Of a stretch of 64,000 nt of DNA, positions 42,685 through 55,604 are shown one piece after another; the first letter of the stretch is position 1, and every line of letters starts with the position of its first letter. Both the position numbers and the translations under genes were made by a program. The DNA lies in assembly GCA_964446815.1 (NCBI GenBank), contig CAYUQN010000002.1, positions 5,463 through 69,462 of the forward strand, given 5' to 3'. Under the pieces are notes generated by a model. It did no database searches, was not told the DNA's origin, and was given only the letters and a program-made list of their open reading frames with translations. Origin of the DNA: an uncultured Oscillospiraceae bacterium. GTDB taxonomy: Bacteria > Bacillota > Clostridia > Oscillospirales > Oscillospiraceae.

Positions 42685-42685
42685 T

Positions 42686-43024
42686 ATGAACACCGGAGAA
42701 GATTTCGTAAAAAAGATAAAGCCCATCGGCTGTGTGCTGTTCCTTGCTTTGTTCGTCGGCTTCCTGCTGGTATGCTTTTTCGGCGGTGCTCCGATAAACG
42801 GCTATGCTCCGCCGCAGGACAGTGAGTATTACGCAGAGCATTTGTCGGAGCTCAAAGCGGAGCTCGAGAAGAATGTCTTCCCCGAGCTTGAAGGCATCAC
42901 AGCCTGTGAGCTTTCGCAAGACAGGCTTTGTATTACGGTCGATCCCGATGAATATGAGGATGTGAAGTACGCGATCACGTTCTATTACGATGAAGAATTA
43001 TTTGAGTTTTTAAAGGAAGAATAA
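42686..43024 (+). CDS. Hypothetical membrane-anchored small protein
   Basis: This 112-aa protein starts 1 nt after the glyQS stop and has a single TM segment (IGCVLFLALFVGFLLVCFF). Confidence 0.5.
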   Translation: MNTGEDFVKKIKPIGCVLFLALFVGFLLVCFFGGAPINGYAPPQDSEYYAEHLSELKAELEKNVFPELEGITACELSQDRLCITVDPDEYEDVKYAITFYYDEELFEFLKEE

Positions 43025-43028
43025 TGAT

Positions 43029-44924
43029 ATGAAAGACGGATTTTTTAAAGTAGCCGCCGCGTCACCTATGATAAAGGTCGCGGATACCGACTATAACGCG
43101 GATCGCATTATCGAGTGCATCGCCGAGGCAGCAGGCAAGGGCGTAAAGCTCATCTCCTTCCCCGAGCTTGTCATAAGCGGCTGCTCCTGCTACGATCTTT
43201 TTAACCACGGTGTCCTTCTGAGAGGTGCCGAGGCCGCTCTCGAAAAAATCGTGGATGCCACCGCACAGCTTGATATCATGTCCGTTGTCGGACTGCCCTT
43301 TGCCCCCAGAGGCGGAGCGCTGTACAGTGTTGCGGCGATAGTCTACGGCGGTGAGATCCTTGCCATGATCCCCAGAACCGAGGTCAAGGGAACCTCCTTT
43401 ACCGCTCCCGAAAAAGAGATACGCACCGTCTCCTTCGGCTCCGAGGGTCAGTTTGACGTCGACTTCGGTACCGAGATAATCCTCAGTGCCGACTTCCCCC
43501 GTTCTCTTGCCATCGCAGTCGAGCTCGGTGCCGATGCCGATGCCGTCATGGCTCCGGCGGCACGTCATGCGGTCTCCGGTGCAAGTCTTATCGTAAGCCT
43601 TGCATCCTTCCCCTCGACCGTCAGTTCCACCGATGAAGCCACCGCAAAGATAAAGTACCGCTCCGAGAATCTCAAGTGTGCAATGCTCCTTGCCGCTCCC
43701 GGTAAGGGTGAAAGCAGTACCGACAATGTGTTCTCCGGTCTCTGCATGATAGCCGAAAACGGTCAGGTGCTTGCATCCGATGAGTGTGAGAATTGCATGG
43801 TGATCTCCGAGGTCGATATGGATTATATCGAGAACCTCCGCCGTAAGGCAGGCTCCTTCGGTGTCGGGACCTATCCGCACTATGAGTTCCGTTGGGACAA
43901 TGAGCTGTGCGAGACTACGCTCACACGCAGCTATCGCAAGCTTCCGCATCTCCCCGAGTTTGAGCGTGACATGGGCAAGTACTGCCGCAGAATGATAGAC
44001 ATTCAGGTATCCGGCCTTATAAAGCGTATGCAGTACGCAGGACTGGATCACTGCGTTGTCGGTATCTCCGGCGGTGTCGATTCCACTCTGTGTGTCATGA
44101 TCTGCGCCGAGGCAATGAAGCGTATGGGTCTGCCCTCTACAAATGTTGTTGCCTGCACTCTGCCTTGCTTCGGTACCTCGTCCCGTACCAAGTCCAATGC
44201 GATAATCGTTGCGGAGCAGGTCGGTGCGGAGGTCAGAGTTATAGATATCGGTGAGAGCGTGTACAAGCACTTTGACGATATCGGTCACGCACATGACGAT
44301 TACTCCGTTGCTTTCGAGAATGCACAGGCCCGTGAACGCACTCAGGTGCTCATGGATATCGCTAACAAGGTCAACGGTCTGGATGTCGGCACCGAGGATC
44401 TGAGCGAATTTGTCGACGGTTGGTGTACCTATAACGGCGACCACACCAGTATGTACGACGTTAACATGGGACTCACCAAGACCCAAGTTCGTGCAGGTGT
44501 ACGCTATATCGCGCAGCACACCGATGACAAGGTGCTTGCCGATGCGCTTTGGGACGTTCTGGACTGCCCCGTAACTCCCGAGCTTCTGCCCATCACCGCC
44601 GATGAGATCGAGCAAAAGAGTGAGGAAAGCGTCGGCTCCTATTCGCTTCAGGACTTCTTCACTCACAAGATGATGATCTGCGGCTTCTCTCCGGCAAAAA
44701 CTCTGCGTATCGCAAAGACGGTGTGGCACGATGAATTCTCCGATGAGGAGCTTGTAAAGTGGCTAACGAGCTATTGCAAGCGTTACTTCTCACAGCAGTT
44801 TAAGCGTAGCTGTCTCATGGACGGCCCTGCTGTTGAGGCGTTCTCCGTGTCTCCGAGAAACGGCTTCCTCATCCCCTCCGATGCGGAAAATACCCTGTTC
44901 GTAAAGGATATCGAGAAAGCATAA
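43029..44924 (+). CDS. nadE: Glutamine-dependent NAD+ synthetase (CN-hydrolase plus NadE domains)
   Basis: It has an N-terminal nitrilase-like domain (ISFPEL..) and a C-terminal PP-loop GISGGVDSTL. Confidence 0.9.
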   Translation: MKDGFFKVAAASPMIKVADTDYNADRIIECIAEAAGKGVKLISFPELVISGCSCYDLFNHGVLLRGAEAALEKIVDATAQLDIMSVVGLPFAPRGGALYSVAAIVYGGEILAMIPRTEVKGTSFTAPEKEIRTVSFGSEGQFDVDFGTEIILSADFPRSLAIAVELGADADAVMAPAARHAVSGASLIVSLASFPSTVSSTDEATAKIKYRSENLKCAMLLAAPGKGESSTDNVFSGLCMIAENGQVLASDECENCMVISEVDMDYIENLRRKAGSFGVGTYPHYEFRWDNELCETTLTRSYRKLPHLPEFERDMGKYCRRMIDIQVSGLIKRMQYAGLDHCVVGISGGVDSTLCVMICAEAMKRMGLPSTNVVACTLPCFGTSSRTKSNAIIVAEQVGAEVRVIDIGESVYKHFDDIGHAHDDYSVAFENAQARERTQVLMDIANKVNGLDVGTEDLSEFVDGWCTYNGDHTSMYDVNMGLTKTQVRAGVRYIAQHTDDKVLADALWDVLDCPVTPELLPITADEIEQKSEESVGSYSLQDFFTHKMMICGFSPAKTLRIAKTVWHDEFSDEELVKWLTSYCKRYFSQQFKRSCLMDGPAVEAFSVSPRNGFLIPSDAENTLFVKDIEKA

Positions 44925-45067
44925 CAGCAAAACCGCCGAAACAATTTGAGCAAAAACTCCCCACGGCAAAAGTCGAGGGGAGTTTTTAAACTCGATGCAA
45001 AAAAGACTTGACTTTGTGGCGGATGTGAATTATAATACACAAGCTGTAACTTAATAGTTTTGCACTC

Positions 45068-45160
45068 GGAGAAGTCGCGTAGTCCGGCCGAGCGCGCACG
45101 ATTGGAAATCGTGTAAACCCCATAAGGGTTTCGAGGGTTCAAATCCCTCCTTCTCCGCCA
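45068..45160 (+). tRNA. tRNA-Ser(GGA): tRNA-Ser, anticodon GGA, long variable arm, CCA encoded
   Basis: It reads GGAGAAG...CACGA-TTGGAAA-TCGTG...GAGGGTTCAAATCCCTC CTTCTCC GCCA. A terminator hairpin follows at 45163-45205. Confidence 0.9.
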
Positions 45161-45319
45161 ACAAAAAGCACACATTTGTCTACCTGACGAATGTGTGCTT
45201 TTTTGATTGAAGTGCGCTAAGGTGCATGAAGAGGCTTCGCCACATTAGGGTGCGCTTCGCTTCATGTTCTGCGAGCAGATCACTTCATGAAAAGCTTCTG
45301 CAAGCTCATATTGATATGC

Positions 45320-45353
45320 AAAATCGGGTAGCCCAACAGGGTACCCGATTTTT
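45320..45353. terminator. Terminator ending the minus-strand 45.4-55.1 kb operon
   Basis: Stem ATCGGGTA/TACCCGAT with flanking A- and T-runs, 30 nt downstream of the aminotransferase stop. Confidence 0.6.
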
Positions 45354-45384
45354 GTCGTCTTATTCATTTACCTGCTTATCTGTC

Positions 45385-46512
45385 CTATTCATGTACGAAC
45401 ACGGAGCGGATCAGGTCGGTGACTTTTTCGATATCCTCTGCGGTCATCTTTGTATCGCTTGGGAGGCACACACCGTTCTCAAACAGCTCCTCACTTACCG
45501 GTCTGTCGCTCACCGAGACAAAGGGGCACTCGGAGAAAACAGGCTGCATATGCATGGGCTTCCAGACATGGCGTGCCTCGATGCCGTGCTTTGCCAGCTC
45601 ACCGATAAGCTCGCTTGGCTTTACGCCGCAATCCTTATCAAGCAGCACGGTACTCAGCCAACGGTTGCTGCTGCAATCCTCGGGCTCTGTGGGAAAGCTC
45701 ATCGGGAGCTCGGAAAGCCGTGCTTTATAGGTTTCAAAGATCTCACGCTTCTTTGCTATACGCTGCGGAAGCACCTTCATCTGTCCCCTGCCTATTCCTG
45801 CACTCACATTGCTCAGGCGGTAGTTATAGCCTATCTCCTCATGCTGATACCACGGAAAGGGCTCCCTTGCCTGAGTCGCAAGCTTCAGGGCATGGGCTGC
45901 ATCGGCTTCGTTCTCGCACAGGAGCATACCGCCTCCGGAGGTGGTGATTATCTTGTTCCCGTTGAAGGAAAGGGCTCCGAAAACGCCGAAGGTGCCGCAG
46001 GCTCTCCCCTTGTACGTTGAGCCGAGGGCTTCTGCTGCATCCTCGATCAGCACTATACCGTGCTCCTCGCAGATATCGCAAAGCTCACTTAATCTCGCCG
46101 GTGTACCGTAAAGGTGGACGGCTATCAGTGCCTTGGGGGCTCCGTAAAGCTCTATCGCCTTGCGGACTGCATCGGGGTCAATATTCCAGCTTTCCGGCTC
46201 CGAGTCAATATACACCGCTCTTGCACCGCAATAGGCTATCGGATTTGCCGATGCCGAGAAGGTCAGGCTCTGGCAAAAGACCGTATCCCCTGCTCCGACA
46301 TCCGAGAGGATCAGGGCAAGGTGCAAGGCGGCAGTGCCGGAGGACAGTGCGACGGTACTGCCCGATCCGGTAAAGCATTTTACGGATTTTTCGAATTCGT
46401 TTACGTTTTCGCCCAAGGGTGCTATCCAATTCTTATTGAAAGCATCATGGACATACTCAAGCTCATAGCCCTCATCCGACATATGGGGGCTTGAAAGAAA
46501 TATTCTATCCAT
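45385..46512 (-). CDS. DegT/DnrJ/EryC1/StrS family sugar aminotransferase (PglE-like)
   Basis: The start is at MDRIFLSSPHM, preceded by GGAGAG. It has NWIAPLG and the PLP-Lys region SFNGNKIITTSGGG. Confidence 0.9.
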   Translation of the reverse strand: MDRIFLSSPHMSDEGYELEYVHDAFNKNWIAPLGENVNEFEKSVKCFTGSGSTVALSSGTAALHLALILSDVGAGDTVFCQSLTFSASANPIAYCGARAVYIDSEPESWNIDPDAVRKAIELYGAPKALIAVHLYGTPARLSELCDICEEHGIVLIEDAAEALGSTYKGRACGTFGVFGALSFNGNKIITTSGGGMLLCENEADAAHALKLATQAREPFPWYQHEEIGYNYRLSNVSAGIGRGQMKVLPQRIAKKREIFETYKARLSELPMSFPTEPEDCSSNRWLSTVLLDKDCGVKPSELIGELAKHGIEARHVWKPMHMQPVFSECPFVSVSDRPVSEELFENGVCLPSDTKMTAEDIEKVTDLIRSVFVHE

Positions 46513-46532
46513 GTTTTCTCTCCTGTCCGATA

Positions 46533-48416
46533 TCACACCGTACTTACATTTCTATGATAGGTGGGGACGATCTGTGCAATGGTATCACGCAGATGCTCCT
46601 CCTCGCCTTCTCCGATTTTTTTGAGCTCGGAGAGTCTTTCGTCAAGATGCTCTGCATCGAAATCGGTCTCTCCGCCGATATAAATGAGGTCGTTTGCCGT
46701 CTTTTGCATACCCTCACCTGAGAGCAGCAGCTCCTCGTAGAGCTTCTCACCCGGTCTGAGTCCGGTGTACACTACGGGGATATCGACATCGGGCTCAAGC
46801 CCCGAAAGGCGGATCATGTTCCTTGCAAGATCGTCTATCCTCACGGGCTCACCCATATCGAGTACAAATATCTCACCGCCCTTGGCATAGGCACCTGCCT
46901 GGAAAATGAGCTGCACCGCCTCGGGAATAGTCATAAAGTAGCGTATGACGTTCTTGTCCGTTACCGTCACGGGACCGCCCTCTCTTATCTGACGGCGAAA
47001 CAGCGGTATTACGCTGCCTGCCGAGCCTAAGACATTGCCGAAGCGAACTGCGACGTATTCCGTATCGCTCCTGCCGTTCCACATTTGGACTATCATTTCG
47101 CATATACGCTTTGATGCTCCCATGACGTTCGTGGGGTTTACCGCCTTATCGGTCGAAACGAGGATCATACGCTTTGTGCCGTACTTATCCGCCGCTGCCA
47201 CAACGTTATAGGTGCCGAACACATTGTTCTTTATCGCTTCAAGGGGTGAATTCTCCATAAGCGGAACGTGCTTATGTGCCGCAGCGTGACAAACGAGGTC
47301 GGGGCGGTACTTATCGAATATGTACTCGACCCTTGCTTTGTCACGCACCGAGCCTATCAGCACCGTGAGATTCAGCTCCGGATGTGTACGTTTTAGCTCC
47401 ATTTGCAGATCGTAGGCATTGTTCTCGTAGATGTCGAAAATGATGAGCCGCTCCGGAGACTGCGTTGCCGCCTGACGGCAAAGCTCACTGCCTATGCTTC
47501 CGCCGCCGCCTGTGACAAGAACGGTCTTGCCCTTTATGTAGCCTGCGACCTCATCGAGATCGATCTTGACTATATCTCTGCCGAGGAGGTCTTCTATGTC
47601 GACCTCCTTGACCTTTTGTATGCTGACCTCGCCGTTTGCAAGCTGATAAAGTCCCGGAAGGCTTCTGAGCTTACAGCCGGTGGCATGGCATATCTCAAGG
47701 ATATCGAGCTTCTGCCTCCTGCTTGCGGAGGGTATCGCAAGTATGATCTCCTCGATACCGTACTTCTCCGCAGCGGAGATTATCATCTCCTTGCCGCCGA
47801 TGATCTTAACGCCGTGGATATAGCTGCCACGCTTCGAGGGATCGTCGTCGATGACGCAGACGACTTTGTTCTCGGAATGGACGCTGTTCCTGAACTCTCT
47901 TATCAGCATGGAGCCGGATTCACCGCCGCCGATGAGCATGGTACGCCTTTGCTCGGAGCTTGGTACGGTCTTTGCTCTTCTGCGTCGCAGTGCCCTGTAC
48001 ACAAGACGCAAAAGTCCCGTTGCCGCAGCAAGCAGCATGGTGTAGATGATCGGGTAGCTCAGCGGCATCCTCGTATCCGCAAGCAGCAGCATCAGGAAGA
48101 AGTTCAGCAAGGCGGATACAGTCGCCGCTATCCCAATTCGCAAAAGCTCATTGTAGCCCGCAAATTCCCACAGGCTGTTGTACAGATTAAAGCCCCAATA
48201 CAGCAGCACCGTGACGGCGGTATTTATAAGTGCATATCTCAAATACCGCTCAAGGTAGAACATGAACGCCGAGTTGGACAGCGTCATACCGTCGACGGAA
48301 AAGCGGATAAACAGTGTGGCTATCGCCGCAATATTTATCAGCACCGCATCGGCGGCTACAAGGAATAAGACCCTTACGAGCTTTTCCCTGCTCCATTCGT
48401 TTTTTAATCTCCCCAT
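46533..48416 (-). CDS. Membrane-bound nucleotide-sugar 4,6-dehydratase (CapD/PglF-like)
   Basis: It has 4 N-terminal TM segments, then the Rossmann motif VLVTGGGGSIGSEL and the CapD core (NVMGASKR..). Confidence 0.9.
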   Translation of the reverse strand: MGRLKNEWSREKLVRVLFLVAADAVLINIAAIATLFIRFSVDGMTLSNSAFMFYLERYLRYALINTAVTVLLYWGFNLYNSLWEFAGYNELLRIGIAATVSALLNFFLMLLLADTRMPLSYPIIYTMLLAAATGLLRLVYRALRRRRAKTVPSSEQRRTMLIGGGESGSMLIREFRNSVHSENKVVCVIDDDPSKRGSYIHGVKIIGGKEMIISAAEKYGIEEIILAIPSASRRQKLDILEICHATGCKLRSLPGLYQLANGEVSIQKVKEVDIEDLLGRDIVKIDLDEVAGYIKGKTVLVTGGGGSIGSELCRQAATQSPERLIIFDIYENNAYDLQMELKRTHPELNLTVLIGSVRDKARVEYIFDKYRPDLVCHAAAHKHVPLMENSPLEAIKNNVFGTYNVVAAADKYGTKRMILVSTDKAVNPTNVMGASKRICEMIVQMWNGRSDTEYVAVRFGNVLGSAGSVIPLFRRQIREGGPVTVTDKNVIRYFMTIPEAVQLIFQAGAYAKGGEIFVLDMGEPVRIDDLARNMIRLSGLEPDVDIPVVYTGLRPGEKLYEELLLSGEGMQKTANDLIYIGGETDFDAEHLDERLSELKKIGEGEEEHLRDTIAQIVPTYHRNVSTV

Positions 48417-48434
48417 AACAATTACCTCTTAGGC

Positions 48435-49871
48435 TCAGTTGGTGCCGTCGGCTTCGGTGTCCCCATAATTTTTACCGTAGCCGTAGCCGTAACCGTAGCC
48501 ATACTTATAACCGTAGCCGTAGCCGTAACCGTTTTTCTTCATGGTGCCTCCGGACACGGCATTGAGTATATAGCCCGAGACCTCAGTTCCGCTCTCGCTG
48601 AGTCTTGTCATGCTCTCAATAACGGAGCTTCTGCTTGCGTAGTTTTGCTTTATGACCATGATCGCCGCATCGCATATCTCCGCAACATCCTCGGCATCGG
48701 TGAGCAGAGAGCAGGGCGGTGTGTCGATCAAAACATAGTCGTATACTTCCTTGAGCCCGTCAATAAGTGCGGTGAATATTCCGCCTCTCATAAGCTCATC
48801 GTTTTCGTCGGCGTTCTCTCCGGCATAGAGAACATCGAAATCATCGAGCTTATGAACGGTCGTTGCGGCGGATGCCGTACCTTCCAGTATTTCCGTAAGA
48901 CCGGCACATTCCTTTTCACCGGTCATCTTGTACATTGACGGATTTCGCAGGTCGCAGTCTATAAGCAGCACCTTTCTGTGGAGCTTTGCAAAGGAGTAGG
49001 CGAGGTTATACGCCACAGTCGTCTTGCCCTCACCGGAAGCGGCACTGCATATAAGCAGCGTCTTTTGCTCCCTGTCACGCATACGCTTGTCCAGTCTCAC
49101 CGCAAGAGTTCTGAACGATTCTCTGTAATATCTGTCCGTGACCGAGGGGAGGGTCAGATTCTTTGTGCTCATTTTACTGCGTTTTTTGACCGCCACCGTG
49201 GGCAAGGTACCGAGGTAACGCACATTGCTGCGGTTTTGCAGATCCTCTCTGCCCATAACGGTGGATTTCGTGTAGCCGTAGATAAACGCAAGCACCAGAC
49301 CCAGTGCAAGCCCCACGACAACGCCTTTTTTGGCGGAGTCCGTCCAATTACGCTGATTGTCGGGCTCATCGGGCATACCGGTCTCGTCAACGATATTCAT
49401 ATAGGTCGGGCCTACAACGAACTCCGCAACCTGCGGATAATTCTTTATCACCGACTGCAAAACATCATAGCAAAGCTTTGCATCGCCGCCCTTGACCGAA
49501 AGCACGATCATATTCGCGCCCTCGACCGCGGTCGCACTTATCGAGGGAAGCGCCGAGGTCCCGACATCCGCCTTAACAAGATCGCTGAGTACGCCGCTTG
49601 TGAGGATATAGGGAAAGGTCTTTTCCATCTGCTGTGCCGCAGCCTGATTGAAGGTCGCAACACTTGACTGATTCTCATTCACCGTATACACGCTGAAGGT
49701 GACCGATGCACTGTAGGACGGGACATAGCTTGTCCATGCACGGTAGCCCATGCCCACACCGCCGAGTAGGGTGAGGAGCAGTACCAGCCACCAAAGCCGT
49801 TTAAGTCCCTGTAAAAAGACATCCAAAAGTCTACCCGGAGAAAAGCTCCGTACAACGCCTTCGTTATTCAT
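48435..49871 (-). CDS. Fused Wzz-like modulator/bacterial tyrosine (BY) kinase, copy 2
   Basis: The start is at MNNEGV, with a GGAGAGGAGAGAGG Shine-Dalgarno sequence, overlapping the upstream stop. It has a 2-TM Wzz-type domain, Walker A SGEGKTT, A' LLIDCDLRNP, Walker B VLIDTPP, and the tail GYGYGYGYKYGYGYGYGYGKNYG. Confidence 0.85.
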   Translation of the reverse strand: MNNEGVVRSFSPGRLLDVFLQGLKRLWWLVLLLTLLGGVGMGYRAWTSYVPSYSASVTFSVYTVNENQSSVATFNQAAAQQMEKTFPYILTSGVLSDLVKADVGTSALPSISATAVEGANMIVLSVKGGDAKLCYDVLQSVIKNYPQVAEFVVGPTYMNIVDETGMPDEPDNQRNWTDSAKKGVVVGLALGLVLAFIYGYTKSTVMGREDLQNRSNVRYLGTLPTVAVKKRSKMSTKNLTLPSVTDRYYRESFRTLAVRLDKRMRDREQKTLLICSAASGEGKTTVAYNLAYSFAKLHRKVLLIDCDLRNPSMYKMTGEKECAGLTEILEGTASAATTVHKLDDFDVLYAGENADENDELMRGGIFTALIDGLKEVYDYVLIDTPPCSLLTDAEDVAEICDAAIMVIKQNYASRSSVIESMTRLSESGTEVSGYILNAVSGGTMKKNGYGYGYGYKYGYGYGYGYGKNYGDTEADGTN

Positions 49872-51372
49872 TGCCTCTCTCCTCTCCGCCATGGGACTTA
49901 GTCTGACTGCGGCTTCCGTAGCCGTACTTGCCGTAACCGTACTTGCCGTAGCCGTGACCGTTGCCGTAGCCGTATTTGCCACCGCTTCCGTAGCTGTAGC
50001 CGTCACTGAGATCGGCGGCTCTTACATTGTTGAAAACACAGCCTATCAGTCTGCCGCAGGCTGCGGACAGCACGTCGATGGAGTCGTTTATCACCTTGAC
50101 CGGTGCGGTATCCTGCCGCACCACCAAGATCGCGGCATCGGCAAGCTCCGCTATACACTCTGCATCGGGGCTGACGGACATGGGCGGAGTGTCGATTATA
50201 ATGCAGTCGACATTCTCCCTTGCCTCATATATCAGCTCTCTCATCGCCTTACCGCTCACAAGCTCGGTGGAACGGTCTGTACCCTGACGGCCGAGGATCA
50301 GTCCCATCTGGTATCCCCTGTCGGATATCAGCGTATCTTTAAGTGCCGCCTTGCCGCCGAGGTAATCAACGATGCTTGCGTACTTTTTGTCCTGATAATT
50401 CATTATCTTGTGCAGAGCCGGCTTCTTCATATCGCCGTCTATCAGGATGACGTTCTTACGCTTCCTGTTCATTGCAAGTGCAAGATTTGCCGCAACGGTG
50501 CTCTTGCCCTCGTTTTCGTAAACGGAGGTCACCATGATGACCTTTGCACCGTCCCTACGCATATGATAATCGACTCTTGTGCGAAGCTTTCTGAAGGTCT
50601 CCGCAAAGGCAAAGCCCGTTTGCGGATTCGTTATGAGTATGCTTCTCTTGCCTCGGGAGAGGAGATCCTTCAGCCTCTTGTACTTGCGTTCGTGATACAC
50701 CGTTGCCAAAAGCTTTGTGTCAAGCTTTGCCTCGACCTCCTCGGATACCTTGACGGTATCTCTCAGGTAGGCCCTGATTATCACAAGCAGCATCGCCGCA
50801 GCCGCAGCAACAAGAGCCGCAAGTCTTGCCATGCCCAGTGCACCCGAGGGATTTACTGCCGTGGTCGGGATCGTCGGCTGACGCAGTATATCCAGCGTCA
50901 CGGTGCTCAGCGTCTTTTCCGCTATCTCACCGTAATTATGCAGCACCGCTTGCGTCATGAGATATGCCTCACCGGGGCTTCCTGCCGTCACGGTCATCTC
51001 GATGAGGTTCGTTTCCTCTATGACCGTTGCGGTTATCTCACCGTATACCCTGTCGGTGTCAAGCTCCTGTGCGACTCTCTTTTTCATTACATCGCTGTCG
51101 ATGATCTCGGAGAAGGAGCTTGCCAAGCTTTGAGCGGCGGCAAGATTTGAATACACCGAGCCGTTGCCCTCTCTCACGGATACGACAAAGGTGGTGTTCG
51201 TCATGTACTTAGGAGTGTAAAGTGCGGAGCTTGCGATATATGCCCAGCAGCCGGCTATTATCGCAACGGCAACTATAAGCCAAAGCTTATTGAGTACCTC
51301 TCTGAGCAGCAGCAGGGGGTGGAAGCCCTGTACGTTCTCATGGGAGGAGGCAACGCTTTTCTTTTCATTCAT
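49864..51372 (-). CDS. Fused Wzz-like modulator/BY-kinase, copy 1
   Basis: It has a 2-TM Wzz-type domain, Walker A ENEGKST, A' ILIDGDMKKP, Walker B IIIDTPP, and the tail GYSYGSGGKYGYGNGHGYGKYGYGKYGYG. Confidence 0.85.
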   Translation of the reverse strand: MNEKKSVASSHENVQGFHPLLLLREVLNKLWLIVAVAIIAGCWAYIASSALYTPKYMTNTTFVVSVREGNGSVYSNLAAAQSLASSFSEIIDSDVMKKRVAQELDTDRVYGEITATVIEETNLIEMTVTAGSPGEAYLMTQAVLHNYGEIAEKTLSTVTLDILRQPTIPTTAVNPSGALGMARLAALVAAAAAMLLVIIRAYLRDTVKVSEEVEAKLDTKLLATVYHERKYKRLKDLLSRGKRSILITNPQTGFAFAETFRKLRTRVDYHMRRDGAKVIMVTSVYENEGKSTVAANLALAMNRKRKNVILIDGDMKKPALHKIMNYQDKKYASIVDYLGGKAALKDTLISDRGYQMGLILGRQGTDRSTELVSGKAMRELIYEARENVDCIIIDTPPMSVSPDAECIAELADAAILVVRQDTAPVKVINDSIDVLSAACGRLIGCVFNNVRAADLSDGYSYGSGGKYGYGNGHGYGKYGYGKYGYGSRSQTKSHGGEERGNE

Positions 51373-51385
51373 AGCTCTGCCCTCC

Positions 51386-52213
51386 TCAACCGACTACGAC
51401 GATGAGCCTTGTCATGCTCTGTCCGTCACCGTAGCCGTAAAAGTAATCGACCGTGTAAACGCCCTCGGTCTCGGTATCGACATTGTTCTCGATACGAAGT
51501 CCGCTTGTGCCCTCACGAAGCTCATCATTGACCTTGTAGCTCTTGACATAGCCCTCGGGGGCAAAGTCCGAGTCCGTGGGGAGGTATATGAGATAGCTTG
51601 TGAGGCTTATCTCCGCCTCGTTCGGTATACGCTCCGTGACCGTTACCGGAAGCTCAAGATGTACCGTATCCCCCAGCTTATTCGTAACGCTGAGCCTCAC
51701 CTTATGCTCACCGACATCGGAAAGAGTAAGGCTCTTGCCCAAAAGTGCGTACTTCACACCGTCGGATATATCGCCGTCGAAAACGTCGGTAGCCGTGATA
51801 TACTTCAAAAGCTCGGCATCTGTGCCCTTTGCGAATATGAGCGGTGCCGAGATCTCAAAGCTCGGTGACTTATAGTCCGAGAACTTCACCGTTCTCTCCG
51901 CTCTTACCATGTGATTGTTCGAGTCGAAGGCGGCATAGCTCACCTTTGCGACACCGTTGCCGGTAAAGCTGCTTATCCCCTCGACTATGAGGGACGCAGT
52001 CACGTCACCGTCCTCGGGATCGCTTGCGGTAACGCCGACGAGCAGCTCCTCATCGGTGTAGCTCGTTCCCACCGTCACCGTATCGCTGTCAAAGGTTATG
52101 ACCGGAGACTGCGGACCGGAGGTGATGCTGACATAGTATTCGTAGCCTATGACCGCTCCCACCGACAGCAGGACAAGTATAAGCATGATTATCGCCGTTT
52201 TGTGTTTTCTCAT
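51386..52213 (-). CDS. Membrane-anchored protein with two Ig-like (DUF5011-type) domains
   Basis: It has an N-terminal TM segment (IIMLILVLLSVGAVIGY). Two repeats carry the D..DGD(V/I)(T/S) pattern (TASDPEDGDVTASL and TATDVFDGDISDGV). Confidence 0.6.
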   Translation of the reverse strand: MRKHKTAIIMLILVLLSVGAVIGYEYYVSITSGPQSPVITFDSDTVTVGTSYTDEELLVGVTASDPEDGDVTASLIVEGISSFTGNGVAKVSYAAFDSNNHMVRAERTVKFSDYKSPSFEISAPLIFAKGTDAELLKYITATDVFDGDISDGVKYALLGKSLTLSDVGEHKVRLSVTNKLGDTVHLELPVTVTERIPNEAEISLTSYLIYLPTDSDFAPEGYVKSYKVNDELREGTSGLRIENNVDTETEGVYTVDYFYGYGDGQSMTRLIVVVG

Positions 52214-52227
52214 ATGGGTGCCTCTTT

Positions 52228-52977
52228 TCAGTATATCTGAAATCTGTCTATCCGCAAAAGCTCCTTGTTGTCAATGATCCTTTGCGGGTTTTCGCAAAGC
52301 AGCAGCTCCGCAAGCTCCTCCGAATAATTGACGCTGATATGGCCGTAAGCGTCCGTCATATCGGGAGTTCGTGCTCCGGCTCCGTGAGCGTCACTTGCTA
52401 TGCAGCTCACCGATGCCTCGGAAAGTAAAATATCGGCAAGCTTGGCGGCGCGTCTACCGAATCTTCCGTAAAGACTGCCCTTGTTTAGCTGTATCCCAAC
52501 GCCGTCGGAATACCATTCGATCGCCGTCTCCGGTCTGTCCTGTAAGGCAAAGTACCGCTCCGGATGTGCCAATATCGGTACAATACCGTCGTCCAGCAAT
52601 CTGTAAAGCACGCTCTGCATAAATACCGAGCCTGCATAAAAATCAAATTCGATGAGCAGATACCTGCTTCCGTTGAGCGTCGGCAATCTGCCCTCCCGGC
52701 AGAGTCTCGGGACATCGGCGGTGCCGAATACCTCAGTGCCGAGGTAAAGCTCCAAGGGAATATCCGCTGCGGCGATCTCCTCTTTAAGCTCCTCAAAAGC
52801 CCTCGTGAGCTTATCCGAAGCAAAGTTTTCAAACCGCCCTATTTGATTGCAATGCGGTGTCGCTATCATCTGCTCCGTTCCGCATTCGGCGGCGATCTCC
52901 GCCATGGAAAGCGAGGTCAGCATATCCTGAGAGCCGTCGTCAAGCGAGGGAATGATATGCGAATGTATGTCTATCAT
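52228..52977 (-). CDS. cpsB: CpsB/CapC-type PHP-domain protein-tyrosine phosphatase
   Basis: It has the canonical N-terminus MIDIHSHIIPSLDDGS, preceded by GGGAGG, and ..IATPH.. and ..ILAHPERY.. motifs. Confidence 0.9.
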   Translation of the reverse strand: MIDIHSHIIPSLDDGSQDMLTSLSMAEIAAECGTEQMIATPHCNQIGRFENFASDKLTRAFEELKEEIAAADIPLELYLGTEVFGTADVPRLCREGRLPTLNGSRYLLIEFDFYAGSVFMQSVLYRLLDDGIVPILAHPERYFALQDRPETAIEWYSDGVGIQLNKGSLYGRFGRRAAKLADILLSEASVSCIASDAHGAGARTPDMTDAYGHISVNYSEELAELLLCENPQRIIDNKELLRIDRFQIY

Positions 52978-53438
52978 TTGTGCCTCCCAAAATGCTTTTT
53001 GAGCCGTGACACCGCTCCCAGGATCGAACGCCTGTGTCCGAAGCTGAGGCTCCAGAGTCTTTTGTAAAATATCCACACGGGGCTTTGAGTTCCTATCTGC
53101 TTGCCCTTTCGTCTTGCCCTGAGGGCGATAGCAAATACGCTGTCCGCTGCAATGGGGCCCTCGAGCTCATCCTGTGCATCTCCGGAAAACCACAAGCCGT
53201 CGCCGTCTGATTTTCTCAGGCGATGCAATATCCATCGACCGTTTGAGCGCCTGTACAGCAAAATGTCCCCACGCTTAAAGGCTTCCTTGGGCTTTGTAAG
53301 CCACACCGCATCCCTGCCGGGGTACAAAAACGGAAGCATACTTGCACCGCTTACCGAAAGCGGAAGCTCCGCTCCCTCATTCAGAAGCTCGATATATTCC
53401 GGCATAAGCTCATCGGGGGAAAGGATCCTCTTTTTCAT
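52974..53438 (-). CDS. S24/S26-like serine peptidase fold protein with no N-terminal TM segment
   Basis: It has the motifs SGASMLPFL, then RGDILLY, then WILHRL. Both its start and its stop overlap the neighbouring genes by 4 nt. Confidence 0.6.
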   Translation of the reverse strand: MKKRILSPDELMPEYIELLNEGAELPLSVSGASMLPFLYPGRDAVWLTKPKEAFKRGDILLYRRSNGRWILHRLRKSDGDGLWFSGDAQDELEGPIAADSVFAIALRARRKGKQIGTQSPVWIFYKRLWSLSFGHRRSILGAVSRLKKHFGRHK

Positions 53439-55147
53439 CGGCTCTCCTCCGTCAGCTTCGTTCCGCTGAGTCTATAGCGTCTGTCGCAGAAATCGGCGGT
53501 CTGCGGTCTGTGAGTTATGATTATGATGGTTCGGCTCTTGCCGCTTTGCTTGAGATTGTTTAAGAGCTTAAGCTCCGTTTCCTCATCGAGAGCACTCGTT
53601 GCCTCGTCAAGAAGCAGAACGGGAGCATCCAAAAGCAGTGCCCTTGCTATCGCGATACGCTGTGCCTGACCCTCCGAAAAGCCTCGACCCAGCTCACCCG
53701 TATCGCTGTTTACGCCCTTGGGGAGCTTCGAAACGAAGTCAAAGGCACAGGCAAGCTTCAGTGCATCCTCTATCATCGCGTCGCTTGCATCGGGTCGCAC
53801 CATACGCAGATTGTCCGCCACCGTGCCGGCAAGCACCGTATTGCCCTGAGGTACGTAGGCAAATGCCCTCCTCGTTGCGGCGGAAAGCTTCATCTCCTCG
53901 CCATTTACCCTCAGCACCGCCTCACCGCTTTTCGGCTTAATGAGACCCAGAATCAGCCGGATCATCGTGGTCTTGCCCTCACCGGAGGCACCTGTCAGTG
54001 CGACCGTATCGCCCATTTTTGCGTCAAAGCATATATCCTCAAGCACCGTCTCACCGTTTGCGTAGGCAAAATCGACGTTTCTCAGCTCAAGCTCACAGCT
54101 TTCGGGAACGTCTATGTTCTCTCTCGCACCGTCCTCCTCCGGGAGCTCCGTCACCGCCATGATCCTGCCTGCGGAGGTCGTAACGGATATTGCCGAGGGT
54201 ACAAGGCCTATCAGCGTCGTAAACGATGAACGGAGCATATTCGTAAGCTGCAAGAACATCGTCAGCGTACCGAAGGATATGAAGCCCGTCCACAGTCTGT
54301 ACACTCCCCAGCCGAAGCAGCCCACGGATATGCACAGTCCCAAAACCGACATGACCATGCTTGCGATAACGGAAAATCTGTTGTACTCCAAAAGTGCCTT
54401 GCGGTAGCTCTCCTGCATATCTGTCATCCTGTCACGGAAGCCGTCCATCACGCCGAAGGCTTTTATGGACACAAGATTGCGGAAGGAGTCCTCATGAAAG
54501 GACATGACCCGGCTTCCGATCTCCTTCATCCTTGAGCTGTACTCTCGCATTCTTGCGACTATTGCCCTTGAGCAGATGACGGAAAGCGGAACGCCTATAA
54601 GAGCTATCAGAGCCATGGTGCTGTCGAAAAACAGGATGATGACCAAAGCACCCAAAAACTGAACGCTTCCCGATACAAGGGATGGCAAAAGGCTTGTAAC
54701 ACCCGATGCAACGGTGTTTACATCGCCGTTTAGCCTGTTTATAAGGTCTCCGCTTCGAAAGCTTTCGAGCGATTCCCAGTCGGTGCGGAGCATACGGTCA
54801 TATACCTCCGCCTGGATGCCGTTTTGCACTCTGATATTTATAATGGCTGCGATCCGTGATGCGGCAGCCTGCATAAGAACGCTGCCGAGCATGAGTCCCA
54901 CCATCAGGGAGGCCGCCAAAACGATACCGCCCGTGTCAAAGCCGGTCACAACGTCTATAAGCTTTTTCATTGCAAGACCGGAGAGCAGGGACATGAGCGT
55001 TCCCATAACGCCGAGAAGGATATGGATAATGACGGCGGCACGGTAGCGGCGGAAATACTTCAGCATCCACCGTGTCTCACTCCACATTTCTTTGAAGTAG
55101 CCTTCCCGTATTTTACTTTTCAGCTTTTGCGAAAACCTCATGTGCAT
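53435..55147 (-). CDS. ABC exporter, fused permease/ATPase (MsbA/type I exporter-like), no C39 peptidase domain
   Basis: It has a 6-TM domain, Walker A GASGEGKTT, signature FSEGQAQR, and Walker B LLLDEATSALD. Confidence 0.9.
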   Translation of the reverse strand: MHMRFSQKLKSKIREGYFKEMWSETRWMLKYFRRYRAAVIIHILLGVMGTLMSLLSGLAMKKLIDVVTGFDTGGIVLAASLMVGLMLGSVLMQAAASRIAAIINIRVQNGIQAEVYDRMLRTDWESLESFRSGDLINRLNGDVNTVASGVTSLLPSLVSGSVQFLGALVIILFFDSTMALIALIGVPLSVICSRAIVARMREYSSRMKEIGSRVMSFHEDSFRNLVSIKAFGVMDGFRDRMTDMQESYRKALLEYNRFSVIASMVMSVLGLCISVGCFGWGVYRLWTGFISFGTLTMFLQLTNMLRSSFTTLIGLVPSAISVTTSAGRIMAVTELPEEDGARENIDVPESCELELRNVDFAYANGETVLEDICFDAKMGDTVALTGASGEGKTTMIRLILGLIKPKSGEAVLRVNGEEMKLSAATRRAFAYVPQGNTVLAGTVADNLRMVRPDASDAMIEDALKLACAFDFVSKLPKGVNSDTGELGRGFSEGQAQRIAIARALLLDAPVLLLDEATSALDEETELKLLNNLKQSGKSRTIIIITHRPQTADFCDRRYRLSGTKLTEESR

Positions 55148-55303
55148 ACTCCGCCCATTATCATTGCAATACAGATTATTTTATCATATTTTGGTGATTT
55201 GGCAATACTATATTATATATAAATTTATCCTCCCCCTGCAAATTTTCACCCCACCGGCAAAGCAGTAAATACTTACTCAGCACACTCACTTGTGCAAGGC
55301 GAC

Positions 55304-55339
55304 AAAAAAAGAAAAGCTCCATGACCTTTATCATGGAGC
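55304..55339 (-). terminator. Rho-independent terminator directly after the 43-aa peptide gene
   Basis: On the minus strand: GCTCCATGAtaaaggTCATGGAGC followed by TTTTCTTTTTTT. Confidence 0.7.
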
Positions 55340-55360: not shown

Positions 55361-55492
55361 TTAAGCCTTGTAGCCCTGAATGGCACCGATGAGACCCTCA
55401 ATGTAGGTGGGGATCCAACCGAGAAGATCCTTTACGAGGTTGAGCTTATCCTCAATTGCCAGACGGACATCTTCGTCAATATGAATGCACAT
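55361..55492 (-). CDS. 43-aa amphipathic peptide (MCIHIDEDVRLAIEDKLNLVKDLLGWIPTYIEGLIGAIQGYKA)
   Basis: The internal ATG of the 67-aa ORF is preceded by a strong AGGAGGA Shine-Dalgarno sequence 5 nt upstream. The gene has its own terminator and lies just upstream of the ABC exporter operon on the same strand. Confidence 0.55.
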   Translation of the reverse strand: MCIHIDEDVRLAIEDKLNLVKDLLGWIPTYIEGLIGAIQGYKA

Positions 55493-55604
55493 GGTACTTC
55501 CTCCTAAAATTATTGTTCGGATGTTATAACTATACCACAAACCGATGCAATTTGTAAATAACAATTTTTACTTTGGCTCAAAAAAGAGCATTTTGGGAAA
55601 AAAA

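What the first reader, a model, noticed from the sequence alone, without database searches (positions are those of the whole stretch)
45385..55147. Capsule-type regulatory and sugar-precursor genes fused into one operon with an ABC exporter and an S24-like peptidase, but no glycosyltransferase, flippase or polymerase
Eight co-directional genes have 4-nt overlaps or gaps of at most ~20 nt. They are an ABC exporter, an S24-like peptidase, the CpsB phosphatase, an Ig-domain membrane protein, two fused Wzz/BY-kinases, a CapD/PglF dehydratase and a DegT/PglE aminotransferase. The operon then stops at a terminator next to tRNA-Ser.

A normal Wzy-type locus would continue with a priming phosphoglycosyltransferase, glycosyltransferases, Wzx and Wzy. 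None is present. The exporter/peptidase pair, translationally coupled to cpsB, is not part of any capsule paradigm I know. The unit may be a tyrosine-phosphorylation signalling/secretion module or a truncated or rearranged EPS locus.
Basis: partly seen in the sequence, partly recalled or inferred. Interest (0 to 1): 0.65.

Follow-up and report, generated by a model that had tools for sequence, protein, structure and literature searches.

The report
Capsule-kinase operon carrying a peptide-export remnant
This is a real operon, conserved across gut Clostridia, in which capsule-control kinase, phosphatase and sugar-precursor genes are joined to a peptide-cleaving enzyme and its exporter; the latter pair is what remains of a peptide-modification gene cassette that habitually travels with this kinase module, a link that the literature searches run here did not find described.

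Summary
Eight co-directional minus-strand genes (45385-55147) with overlaps or gaps of 20 nt or less encode an ABC exporter, a small peptidase, CpsB, an Ig-like membrane protein, two fused Wzz/BY-kinases, a CapD dehydratase and a DegT aminotransferase. The 64-kb window holds no glycosyltransferase, Wzx, Wzy or priming transferase.

The gene order is not an artefact. It recurs in independent metagenome contigs and in dozens of species of Oscillospiraceae, Ruminococcus, Acutalibacteraceae and Lachnospiraceae, in several different orders.

The "S24-like" peptidase is a soluble clan-SF enzyme with Sec11/SipW-type Ser/His motifs. In relatives it sits with PqqD, a radical-SAM/SPASM enzyme, a ScmC/HprK-like protein, NTP_transf_5 and Cys-containing precursor peptides that share a leader. 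This is a sacti/ranthipeptide-like RiPP cassette. The peptidase also occurs fused to the N-terminus of the same ABC exporter family, as the C39 domain does in peptidase-containing ABC transporters (PCATs).

The window's clade has lost the modification genes. It keeps the exporter and peptidase under purifying selection.

My best reading is a capsule-control and precursor operon merged with a split, PCAT-like unit that cleaves a peptide leader and exports the peptide. Its substrate in this species is unknown. I rate it a new variant of known kinds, of moderate to high interest.

The parts
55178..55205 (-). Sigma-70-like promoter candidate for the operon (TTGCCA, 16 nt, TAAAAT, with an upstream TG), about 30 nt before the ABC start
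   Evidence: Consensus scan, 10 of 12 matches. It is a consensus match only. Homology with a related species' flank ends at 55300, just upstream.
53435..55147 (-). ABC exporter half-transporter (TMD plus NBD, 570 aa; a 568-aa start is also possible). It has no C39 domain.
   Evidence: ABC_membrane and ABC_tran. It is below every curated NCBIfam cut-off, including PglK, MsbA and HlyB. Walker A GASGEGKT, signature FSEGQ, Walker B VLLLDE, five hydrophobic segments. 41% identical (E 1e-146) to the ABC part of a fused peptidase-ABC protein.
52974..53438 (-). Soluble 154-aa clan-SF peptidase with Sec11/SipW-type motifs (SGxSMxPFL Ser33, LHR His72, GDAQD) and two C-terminal amphipathic helices. It overlaps both neighbouring genes by 4 nt.
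   Evidence: Invariant residues in alignment A1. Best PDB profile hit SEC11A, E 0.0036, aligning the Ser and His motifs. AF2 model pLDDT 89.7. Fold hits to LexA, lambda cI, UmuD' and SpsB. No TM segment predicted. dN/dS 0.04-0.32.
52228..52977 (-). CpsB-type PHP phosphotyrosine phosphatase (249 aa from the ATG at 52977)
   Evidence: PF19567 E 1.9e-60. Cps4B model 138 bits, below the equivalog cut-off. The 249-aa gene call is the same in independent contigs.
51386..52213 (-). Single-pass membrane protein with extracellular Ig-like repeats (275 aa). It always precedes the two kinases.
   Evidence: PF16403 E 2.4e-13. One N-terminal TM segment. Alignment A2. Ig-WzzK adjacency in 51 of 80 loci.
49864..51372 (-). 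Fused Wzz (two TM segments plus loop) and BY-kinase 1. It has atypical Walker A (SVYENEGKST) and A' (DGDMKKP) motifs and a C-terminal YG-rich tail with 9 Tyr.
   Evidence: Wzz, AAA_31 and ParA. TIGR01007 124.7 bits, above the cut-off of 108. Motifs and TM segments.
48435..49871 (-). Fused Wzz and BY-kinase 2 (478 aa from the ATG at 49871). It has a canonical Walker A (SAASGEGKTT) and a YG-repeat tail with 11 Tyr.
   Evidence: TIGR01007 137.8 bits. Motifs. 478-aa gene call in independent contigs. YG-coding DNA repeats D1/D2.
46533..48416 (-). Membrane-anchored CapD/PglF-type UDP-GlcNAc 4,6-dehydratase (627 aa)
   Evidence: Polysacc_synt_2 E 1.2e-119 and CoA_binding_3. PseB and FnlA models below cut-off.
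45385..46536 (-). DegT/PglE/LegC-like PLP aminotransferase; the last gene of the operon
   Evidence: PF01041 E 2.9e-95. LegC family 367.5 bits against a cut-off of 420.
45320..45352 (-). Hairpin followed by TTTT, directly after the DegT stop; probable operon terminator
   Evidence: Inverted repeat I18, 14-nt arms, 5-nt loop. Sequence read. The automatic scan did not list it because the T run has only 4 T.
45163..45203 (.). Second, stronger hairpin flanked by A and T runs, next to tRNA-Ser; probably a bidirectional terminator
   Evidence: Inverted repeat I2, 18-nt arms, 94% complementary. Sequence. tRNA-Ser at 45068-45160.

Best explanation
The locus is one operon built from three functional blocks.

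(1) Capsule/EPS assembly control. This block holds a CpsB phosphotyrosine phosphatase, an Ig-like membrane protein and two tandem Wzc-like proteins in which the Wzz co-polymerase domain is fused to a BY-kinase with a Tyr-rich tail. By analogy with CpsBCD and Wzc/Wzb, cycles of autophosphorylation and dephosphorylation would tune polymerisation and export. The glycosyltransferase, Wzx and Wzy genes that do this work lie elsewhere in the genome.

(2) Precursor supply. A PglF/CapD-type dehydratase and a PglE/LegC-like aminotransferase would make a UDP-4-amino-4,6-dideoxy-HexNAc. Sugars of this kind typically start a repeat unit.

(3) A two-gene unit for cleaving a peptide leader and exporting the peptide. 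A soluble Ser/His clan-SF peptidase is translationally coupled to an ABC exporter. This is a split analogue of peptidase-containing ABC transporters (PCATs).

Block 3 is what remains of a sacti/ranthipeptide-like RiPP cassette: precursor, radical-SAM/SPASM enzyme, PqqD, ScmC/HprK-like protein, NTP_transf_5, peptidase and exporter. That cassette is physically interleaved with this particular kinase module across several Clostridia families. The window's clade lost the modifying genes but kept the peptidase and exporter.

Shown: the gene content, the conservation and interleaving, the fusions, the loss pattern and the purifying selection.
Inferred: the enzymatic roles, that block 3 handles a peptide, and that it is functionally tied to the kinase module.
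Unknown: the substrate in this species.
For: Gene identities.

The same eight-gene order occurs in independent metagenome contigs.

Of 80 genome loci centred on the peptidase, counts within 10 kb are:
- fused Wzz-kinases: 53
- the Ig protein: 52
- the ABC exporter: 51
- CpsB: 47
- PqqD: 42
- NTP_transf_5: 27
- the ScmC-like protein: 25
- radical SAM: 24
At least four different gene orders occur, with cassette genes interleaved among kinase-module genes.

Family identities of the neighbours.

Precursor candidates with a shared leader (MKK-Y-x-KPEL...) and Cys-containing cores occur in about 20 loci. The leader weakly resembles the StsA sactipeptide family.

Reverse check from the Ig motif, by my hand count of the listing: about 33 of about 38 informative modules of the type Ig plus two fused kinases carry at least one cassette gene. 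Classical split CpsC/CpsD loci carry none.

Fusions:
- Peptidase plus ABC exporter of the same family (41% identity; the cluster has 2,515 members, including a [Ruminococcus] lactaris protein).
- NTP_transf_5 plus peptidase.

Peptidase fold and Ser/His motifs. No TM segment is predicted.

In the PqqD-less clade, dN/dS is 0.04-0.32 for the peptidase and 0.07-0.13 for the exporter in the less saturated (closely related) pairs.

In the ABC tree, the window's clade is nested among cassette-bearing clades.

In Acutalibacteraceae, the same module runs straight into DegT, a priming transferase, GT2 and LicD-type genes.
Against: - No precursor peptide, PqqD or radical-SAM gene lies in the 64-kb window. 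What the peptidase and exporter act on here is therefore unknown.
- Peptidase activity, export and tyrosine phosphorylation are all untested.
- Similarity of the peptidase to solved signal peptidases is weak (E 0.004 by sequence, 4e-3 by fold), and the curated S26 model is not passed.
- The fused peptidase-ABC gene of [Ruminococcus] lactaris, and several peptidase-ABC pairs, lie away from any capsule genes. The pair can therefore work independently of the kinase module.
- Gene linkage may reflect shared regulation or shared island mobility rather than a shared mechanism.
- The rest of the genome could not be searched for glycosyltransferase, Wzx and Wzy genes.
Confidence: 0.6

Rival explanations
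1. The ABC exporter is a PglK-like flippase or polymer exporter that stands in for Wzx. The small peptidase-like protein is then an accessory factor. On this reading the operon is a complete control, precursor and translocation unit for a glycan.
For: - It sits in one operon with PglF- and PglE-like genes.
- The exporter matches the PglK and MsbA models at low E-values.
- In L049 the peptidase-ABC pair directly follows a priming transferase in a glycan locus. In Acutalibacteraceae the cassette is flanked by glycan genes.
Against: - PglK scores 169 bits against a cut-off of 1000. This is no better than many unrelated exporter families such as HlyB, CydDC and bacteriocin exporters.
- The partner peptidase keeps its invariant catalytic Ser and His. 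It is fused to the exporter's N-terminus in relatives, as in PCATs.
- It is adjacent to a PqqD peptide-recognition protein in 22 loci and lies close to precursor peptides.
- Peptidase-ABC pairs and fusions also occur with no glycan genes nearby.
Confidence: 0.12
2. The peptidase is a dedicated SipW-like signal peptidase. It would process a secreted or membrane protein of the locus, for example the Ig-like protein or sortase substrates in relatives, as SipW does for TapA and TasA in the Bacillus subtilis biofilm operon.
For: - Sec11/SipW-type Ser/His motifs.
- The peptidase and the Ig-like protein are the two fastest-evolving proteins of the operon: 61% and 70% identity between the window and L010, against 81-91% for the other six.
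- In Ruminococcus the peptidase stays with the kinases and CpsB while the other cassette genes lie 3 kb away.
- The SipW precedent is from my own knowledge.
Against: - No TM anchor or signal sequence is predicted, so the active site is expected in the cytoplasm.
- It is fused to the cytoplasmic N-terminus of an ABC exporter and to a cytoplasmic nucleotidyltransferase in relatives.
- It pairs with PqqD, a cytoplasmic leader-binding protein.
- It scores below the curated signal-peptidase cut-off (21.5 against 51.85 bits).
Confidence: 0.1
3. Two unrelated units merely lie side by side: a bacteriocin-type export/processing pair and a capsule-control operon. Both are island-borne surface or competition genes, and there is no functional coupling.
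For: - The locus behaves like a variable island. A close relative has 96.5% identical flanks but a 73% identical, inverted locus. In another relative the flank continues into different genes at 55300.
- Peptidase-ABC units exist on their own elsewhere.
Against: - 4-nt overlaps join ABC to the peptidase and the peptidase to cpsB.
- Linkage survives several rearrangements, and the genes interleave. The peptidase lies between kinase 2 and CpsB; NTP_transf_5 lies before the Ig gene; PqqD lies before CpsB.
- About 33 of about 38 modules of this kinase type carry cassette genes, by hand count.
Confidence: 0.15
4. The exporter and peptidase are decaying leftovers with no current function.
For: The modification genes and the precursor are missing from the window.
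Against: - Both reading frames are intact, with catalytic and ATPase motifs preserved.
- dN/dS is well below 1 across the whole PqqD-less clade.
- The pair is retained in about 13 species representatives.
Confidence: 0.03

Closest known systems
CpsB/CpsC/CpsD of Streptococcus pneumoniae; CapA/CapB/CapC of Staphylococcus aureus; Wzc/Wzb of E. coli (BY-kinase control of Wzy-dependent capsule). From my own knowledge.
   Same: A PHP-type phosphatase; a Wzz-type two-TM modulator; a P-loop BY-kinase with Walker A and B motifs and a C-terminal Tyr cluster; a position at the head of polysaccharide genes.
   Different: - The modulator and kinase are fused, as in Gram-negative Wzc, although the host is a Firmicute.
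- There are two tandem copies, one with atypical Walker A and A' motifs.
- An extra Ig-like membrane protein is always present.
- There is no CpsA/LCP protein here.
- No glycosyltransferase, Wzx or Wzy gene lies in the locus.
Bacillus subtilis tkmA-ptkA-ptpZ-ugd operon. From my own knowledge.
   Same: A stand-alone operon that combines a BY-kinase, its modulator, a PHP phosphatase and a nucleotide-sugar enzyme, away from the glycosyltransferase operon.
   Different: Different sugar enzymes (dehydratase and aminotransferase instead of Ugd); fused and duplicated kinases; an Ig-like protein; and an exporter/peptidase pair.
Peptidase-containing ABC transporters (PCATs: ComA, LagD, PCAT1). From my own knowledge.
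   Same: An ABC half-transporter paired with a cytoplasmic leader peptidase. In relatives the peptidase is fused to the exporter's N-terminus.
   Different: The peptidase is a clan-SF Ser/His enzyme, not a C39 Cys protease. It is a separate polypeptide here. No double-glycine substrate is known.
Sactipeptide and ranthipeptide gene clusters (StsA/StsB, PapA/PapB, SCIFF) and the split lasso B1 (PqqD) / B2 protease arrangement
   Same: In relatives: a Cys-containing precursor with a conserved leader, a radical-SAM/SPASM maturase, a discrete PqqD protein, a protease and an ABC exporter.
   Different: - All matches are below the curated cut-offs.
- The protease class differs.
- Extra ScmC/HprK-like and NTP_transf_5 proteins are present.
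- The cassette is embedded in a capsule-kinase module.
- In the window only the protease and exporter remain.
Sec11/SipW (S26B) signal peptidases, including the B. subtilis tapA-sipW-tasA biofilm operon
   Same: SGxSMxP Ser and HR His motifs; a GD-x-x-D box; the clan-SF fold; a position in a surface-matrix operon.
   Different: No TM anchor; predicted to be cytoplasmic; below the curated model cut-off; partners are PqqD and an ABC exporter.
Campylobacter Pgl pathway (PglF, PglE, PglK)
   Same: A PglF-type membrane dehydratase, a PglE-type aminotransferase and an ABC exporter in one operon.
   Different: No PglD, PglC or PglB is present. The exporter scores far below the PglK cut-off, and it keeps the company of peptide-processing genes.

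Membership tests
BY-kinase capsule-control module (CpsBCD / Wzc-Wzb type) | PHP-family phosphotyrosine phosphatase CpsB | tested here: met
   PF19567 E 1.9e-60, 204.6 bits against a cut-off of 27.
BY-kinase capsule-control module (CpsBCD / Wzc-Wzb type) | Wzz-type modulator with two TM segments flanking an extracellular loop | tested here: met
   PF02706 in kinase 1 (36.3 bits, above the cut-off). It is weaker in kinase 2 (19.3 bits, below the cut-off). Two hydrophobic segments in each protein.
BY-kinase capsule-control module (CpsBCD / Wzc-Wzb type) | P-loop kinase domain with Walker A, A' and B motifs and a C-terminal Tyr cluster | tested here: met
   TIGR01007 124.7 and 137.8 bits against a cut-off of 108. 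Tails carry 9 and 11 Tyr. Kinase 1 has atypical A and A' motifs.
BY-kinase capsule-control module (CpsBCD / Wzc-Wzb type) | Tyrosine autophosphorylation and CpsB-dependent dephosphorylation | not testable with these tools
   Needs biochemistry.
Complete Wzy-dependent CPS/EPS locus | Priming phosphoglycosyltransferase, glycosyltransferases, Wzx and Wzy in the same locus | tested here: not met
   None in the operon. None among the further window ORFs scanned against Pfam. The PGT, LCP and sortase HMMs hit nothing in the window.
Peptidase-containing ABC transporter (PCAT) | ABC exporter with a TMD and an NBD | tested here: met
   ABC_membrane and ABC_tran; ATPase motifs.
Peptidase-containing ABC transporter (PCAT) | N-terminal C39 cysteine peptidase domain | tested here: not met
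   No C39 hit. The exporter starts directly with its TM region. Relatives carry an N-terminal clan-SF domain instead.
Peptidase-containing ABC transporter (PCAT) | Leader-bearing peptide substrate encoded nearby | tested here: not met
   No precursor-like ORF in the window. The 43-aa ORF upstream belongs to the flank.
S26B signal peptidase (Sec11/SipW) | Clan-SF fold | tested here: met
   Fold hits to LexA, lambda cI, UmuD', SpsB and E. coli SPase I, probability about 1, E from 4e-3, on a model with pLDDT 89.7.
S26B signal peptidase (Sec11/SipW) | Ser nucleophile in SGxSMxP and His in an HR motif | tested here: met
   S33, H72 and R73 are invariant in 18 sequences. They align to the SEC11A motifs.
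S26B signal peptidase (Sec11/SipW) | Membrane anchor placing the catalytic domain outside the cytoplasm | tested here: not met
   No hydrophobic segment predicted. The model shows only two amphipathic C-terminal helices.
S26B signal peptidase (Sec11/SipW) | Passes the curated family model | tested here: not met
   TIGR02228 21.5 bits against a cut-off of 51.85.
S24 LexA-like peptidase | Ser/Lys catalytic pair and a PF00717 match | tested here: not met
   No invariant Lys. The window protein has no Pfam hit. Some distant relatives do match PF00717.
Radical-SAM RiPP cluster (sacti/ranthipeptide type) | Radical-SAM/SPASM maturase, a PqqD recognition protein and a Cys-containing precursor | tested here: not met
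   Absent from the window. Present next to the orthologous peptidase and exporter in many relatives.
PglK-type lipid-linked oligosaccharide flippase | Passes the curated PglK model | tested here: not met
   NF050066 169 bits against a cut-off of 1000.
UDP-diNAcBac / 4-amino-sugar pathway (PglF-PglE-PglD) | 4,6-dehydratase and C4 aminotransferase | tested here: met
   Polysacc_synt_2 E 1.2e-119; DegT E 2.9e-95. The exact substrate and product are inferred.
UDP-diNAcBac / 4-amino-sugar pathway (PglF-PglE-PglD) | N-acetyltransferase PglD | tested here: not met
   None of the eight operon genes is an acetyltransferase.

The most novel reading that the evidence does not exclude
In gut Clostridia, a radical-SAM-modified peptide cassette and a special capsule tyrosine-kinase module (Ig-like protein plus two Wzc-like fusions plus CpsB) form one system. 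In this system an exported peptide, cut by a new class of leader peptidase (a soluble Sec11-like Ser/His enzyme working with an ABC exporter), controls or is required for capsule assembly. The window's lineage would have simplified the system to peptidase plus exporter, acting on an unmodified or distally encoded peptide.
Probability: 0.2. Interest if true: 0.8.

Novelty: new variant of a known kind. Interest (0 to 1): 0.6.

Why it matters
Capsules and exopolysaccharides shape how gut commensals meet the host, phages and each other. Their control in Clostridia is almost unstudied.

The data define a widespread and apparently undescribed locus type. In it, a distinctive tyrosine-kinase module is regularly merged with a peptide maturation and export cassette.

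If the link is functional, it would be a peptide-dependent switch for capsule assembly. It would also add a new leader-peptidase class to RiPP biology and to ABC-exporter biology.

The hypotheses are directly testable:
- mutants of the peptidase or exporter, scored for capsule and phosphotyrosine;
- peptidomics of culture supernatants.

The work also supplies a precursor leader motif for genome mining.

Tried and rejected
1. The 43-aa ORF upstream of the exporter (55361-55492) as the substrate. It has its own promoter, a ribosome-binding site and a terminator.
   - No relative has a conserved small ORF in that position.
   - Its only homologues are 93-95% identical. In those contigs the gene follows the SDH_alpha gene but is followed by a different, opposite-strand gene, and homology to the window stops at 55300.
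   - It belongs to the flank. Rejected.

2. The exporter as a PglK or MsbA orthologue. All curated models are far below cut-off.

3. The cassette or glycan-assembly genes lying elsewhere in the window. HMMs for PqqD, radical SAM, ScmC-like, NTP_transf_5, LCP, sortase B and the priming transferase hit nothing.

4. Att-like direct repeats at the island borders. None found.

5. A reverse search starting from the Ig-like protein with the search for related loci. It failed twice because no conserved stretch was available. I replaced it with a degenerate DNA motif scan.

6. Literature searches combining PqqD, HPr kinase, nucleotidyltransferase, S24/S26, radical SAM, tyrosine kinase, exopolysaccharide and ranthipeptide. 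None returned a paper describing this arrangement. Absence from the library is not proof of novelty.

7. A peptidase-CpsB fusion protein (P0139). It lacks the N-terminal His motif of CpsB and may be a frameshift artefact. I did not use it as evidence.

Full report
**1. Observation**

The region 45385-55147 holds eight minus-strand ORFs.

Pfam and NCBIfam assign them as follows:
- ABC exporter: ABC_membrane plus ABC_tran.
- A 154-aa protein with no Pfam hit and only a weak match to archaeal-type signal peptidase I (TIGR02228, E 1.7e-4, below cut-off).
- CpsB: PF19567, E 1.9e-60.
- A membrane protein with Ig-like repeats: PF16403.
- Two proteins that each join a Wzz domain to a BY-kinase domain. 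TIGR01007 gives 124.7 and 137.8 bits, both above the cut-off of 108.
- A CapD/PglF-type dehydratase: Polysacc_synt_2, E 1.2e-119.
- A DegT aminotransferase closest to LegC and PglE.

With the gene starts used in independent gene calls, the junctions are -4, -4, +14, +13, -8, +18 and +20 (or -4) nt. A promoter-like site lies about 30 nt upstream of the exporter. Two hairpins with T runs lie between DegT and tRNA-Ser(GGA).

No glycosyltransferase, Wzx, Wzy or priming transferase was found. Thirty further window ORFs were scanned against Pfam, three of them without a hit. They gave housekeeping or sugar-catabolism families, for example NadE, a class II aminoacyl-tRNA synthetase (tRNA-synt_2b with an HGTP anticodon-binding domain), PrmA, HPF, a PBP, BipA, NrdD, AcnX and transketolase. 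Locus-derived HMMs for the priming transferase, LCP, sortase B and the cassette proteins hit nothing outside the operon. Not every ORF of the window was scanned against Pfam.

**2. The gene order is not an artefact**

The identical peptidase occurs on 16 contigs. Eight contigs from independent sequencing runs were inspected and all show the same gene order as far as each contig reaches.

A profile of the peptidase family found 111 matches among species-representative genomes, and 80 loci were fetched. I mapped these with tblastn and with HMMs built from the neighbours.

Counts within 10 kb of the peptidase:
- fused Wzz-kinases: 53 loci
- the Ig-like protein: 52
- the ABC exporter: 51
- CpsB: 47

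The same eight genes in the same order recur in at least six other species representatives (L009, L010, L011, L021, L028, L032).

**3. What the exporter/peptidase pair is**

Clustering the neighbours revealed further families that travel with the peptidase:
- PqqD (PF05402), found in 42 loci
- a radical-SAM/SPASM enzyme, in 24
- a P-loop protein weakly similar to ScmC and HprK-related kinases, in 25
- NTP_transf_5 (PF14907), in 27

Between these genes lie small ORFs of 54-140 aa. They share an N-terminal leader (MKK-Y-x-KPEL-x-x-E-x-F-E-L-x-Q-x-IA) and have Cys-containing cores. About 20 loci have them. The leader weakly resembles the StsA sactipeptide family. The radical-SAM enzyme hits the StsB, PapB, PqqE and mycofactocin-type maturases, all below curated cut-offs. 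This is the anatomy of a sacti/ranthipeptide-like RiPP cluster.

The peptidase itself:
- Ser33 (in SGxSMxPFL), His72-Arg73 and a GDAQD box are invariant, and there is no invariant Lys.
- Its best solved relative by profile is human SEC11A, aligned over the Ser and His motifs (E 0.0036).
- A confident model (pLDDT 89.7) matches LexA, lambda cI, UmuD' and bacterial signal peptidases, which together make up clan SF.
- No TM segment is predicted, so the active site should face the cytoplasm.

A search of 1.84 billion representative proteins found 11,520 clusters at E up to 0.001 and 3,325 at E up to 1e-10. Among the best 150 were natural fusions:
- Peptidase plus ABC exporter (P0107). Its exporter part is 41% identical to the window's exporter over the full length. 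Its cluster has 2,515 members, including a [Ruminococcus] lactaris protein.
- NTP_transf_5 plus peptidase. Four of the four such proteins tested (464-629 aa, peptidase domain at the C-terminus) had this architecture.

The first fusion mirrors the C39-ABC architecture of peptidase-containing ABC transporters. The frequent PqqD-peptidase adjacency (22 loci) mirrors the split B1/B2 arrangement of lasso peptide systems. I therefore read the pair as a leader peptidase with its exporter.

**4. Link to the kinase module**

The cassette and the kinase module are interleaved, not merely adjacent. The arrangements seen are:
- Oscillospiraceae: ABC-peptidase-(PqqD)-CpsB-Ig-K-K-(CapD...), where K is a fused Wzz-kinase.
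- Ruminococcus: NTP5-Ig-K-K-peptidase-CpsB, with radical SAM, ScmC-like, precursor and PqqD about 3 kb away on the other strand.
- Acutalibacteraceae: CpsB-Ig-K-K-ABC-PqqD-rSAM-precursor-ScmC-peptidase-NTP5-DegT-priming transferase-GT2....
- Anaerostipes: PqqD-peptidase alone.

As a reverse test, I scanned genomes for a DNA motif of the Ig-like protein and mapped the hits. Counts here are my hand count of that listing. Modules of the type Ig plus two fused kinases carried at least one cassette gene in about 33 of about 38 informative 8-kb chunks. Classical loci with separate CpsC and CpsD and a short Ig-like protein carried none. The linkage is therefore specific to this kinase architecture.

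**5. The window's lineage**

No PqqD, radical-SAM, ScmC-like, NTP_transf_5 or precursor gene lies in the window.

In a neighbour-joining tree of the exporters, the window's clade is nested among clades that carry the cassette genes. The clade has about 13 species representatives, and all of them lack those genes. Loss is the simplest account.

Within this clade, dN/dS is 0.04-0.32 for the peptidase and 0.07-0.13 for the exporter in the less saturated (closely related) pairs. Both are maintained by selection. Between the window and L010, the peptidase and the Ig-like protein are the fastest-evolving proteins of the operon (61% and 70% identity, against 81-91% for the rest).

The locus behaves like a variable island:
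- A close relative (L012/L089) has 96.5% identical tRNA-synthetase-to-NadE flanks. Its locus is only 73% identical, is inverted, and lacks DegT and the tRNA gene.
- In another relative, the SDH_alpha flank is followed by different genes beyond 55300.

**6. Mechanism proposed**

Block 1 is CpsB, the Ig-like protein and the two Wzc-like proteins. By analogy with CpsBCD and Wzc/Wzb, it would control polymerisation and export by cycling tyrosine phosphorylation of the YG-rich tails (9 and 11 Tyr).

Block 2 is CapD and DegT. It would supply a UDP-4-amino-4,6-dideoxy-HexNAc.

Block 3 is the peptidase and exporter. It would cleave and export a peptide.

The glycan-assembly genes must lie elsewhere. 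The B. subtilis tkmA-ptkA-ptpZ-ugd operon is a precedent for a kinase, phosphatase and sugar-enzyme operon lying apart from the glycosyltransferases (my own knowledge).

The substrate of block 3 in this species is unknown. So is whether it feeds back on the kinases.

**7. Rivals**

- A PglK-like flippase role for the exporter. This is disfavoured by the score (169 bits against 1000) and by the peptide-processing company the exporter keeps.
- A SipW-like role in processing the Ig-like protein. This is disfavoured by the missing membrane anchor and the cytoplasmic fusion partners.
- Mere juxtaposition of two islands. This is disfavoured by the overlaps and the interleaving. It is not excluded, because peptidase-exporter units also occur alone.
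- Decay. This is excluded by the evidence of selection.

**8. Novelty**

Every component belongs to a known kind. Three things appear new:
- the systematic merger of a RiPP-type cassette with a specific BY-kinase module;
- a clan-SF Ser/His enzyme in the PCAT-like peptidase position;
- the reduced two-gene form seen here.

Seven literature searches found no description of this arrangement. That is weak evidence only.

Verdict: a new variant of known kinds; interest 0.6.

Noticed in passing
window 55361-55492 (-): A 43-aa ORF (MCIHIDEDVRLAIEDKLNLVKDLLGWIPTYIEGLIGAIQGYKA). It has its own promoter-like site (55558..55529), an AGGAGG ribosome-binding site and a strong terminator (55339..55316). 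It is conserved at 93-95% only in close relatives, where it follows the SDH_alpha gene. Its function is unknown, and it is not part of the operon.
   Followed up: yes
L012/L089 compared with window 41166-55225: A close relative shares 96.5% identical tRNA-synthetase-to-NadE flanks. Its version of the locus is only 73% identical, is inverted, and lacks DegT and tRNA-Ser. The locus is a hypervariable, relocating island, as capsule loci often are.
   Followed up: partly
L020, L023, L065, L068, L074 (between PqqD and the precursor): A membrane-anchored protein of about 190-290 aa with a weak FxLYD-domain match recurs inside the cassette, next to the precursor gene. Its role is unknown.
   Followed up: partly
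L217-L219 ([Ruminococcus] lactaris-like contigs): The fused peptidase-ABC gene sits in front of a Ser/Thr kinase, an unknown 404-aa protein, a PP2C-domain protein with a weak restriction-enzyme match, and an AAA ATPase. This is a different context and possibly a defence context.
   Followed up: no
L014, L016, L018, L019, L024-L026, L034, L038, L039: In many Oscillospiraceae relatives the kinases (or CapD) are followed by an LCP transferase, a gene of about 0.4-1.2 kb, and a class B sortase. This suggests that both a glycopolymer and a protein are anchored to the wall by the same locus.
   Followed up: no
L035, L036, L043, L055, L060, L066, L071, L079 (Anaerostipes and relatives): An orphan PqqD-peptidase gene pair sits between trkA/trkH and two LeuC/LeuD-like pairs. 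No radical-SAM enzyme, exporter or kinase is within 10 kb.
   Followed up: no
L093, L095, L107, L116, L135, L158, L162, L176, L188, L190, L192, L203, L207, L211: Classical Lachnospiraceae capsule loci (CpsB, separate CpsC and CpsD) are followed by a short protein that shares the same Ig-like motif. An Ig-like partner of the kinase is therefore broader than the fused-kinase module.
   Followed up: partly
window 49864-51372 (-): Kinase 1 has a non-canonical Walker A (SVYENEGKST) and A' (DGDMKKP), while kinase 2 is canonical. The tandem pair may be an active/regulatory heteromer.
   Followed up: partly
window 30-3791 (+): A 1,253-aa protein with superfamily-1 helicase domains (AAA_11, AAA_12) and a C-terminal MTES_1575 restriction-endonuclease-like domain.
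   Followed up: no
window 37309-39204 (+): A 631-aa protein with TPR and many leucine-rich repeats, lying between an M29 aminopeptidase gene and the hibernation factor gene.
   Followed up: no
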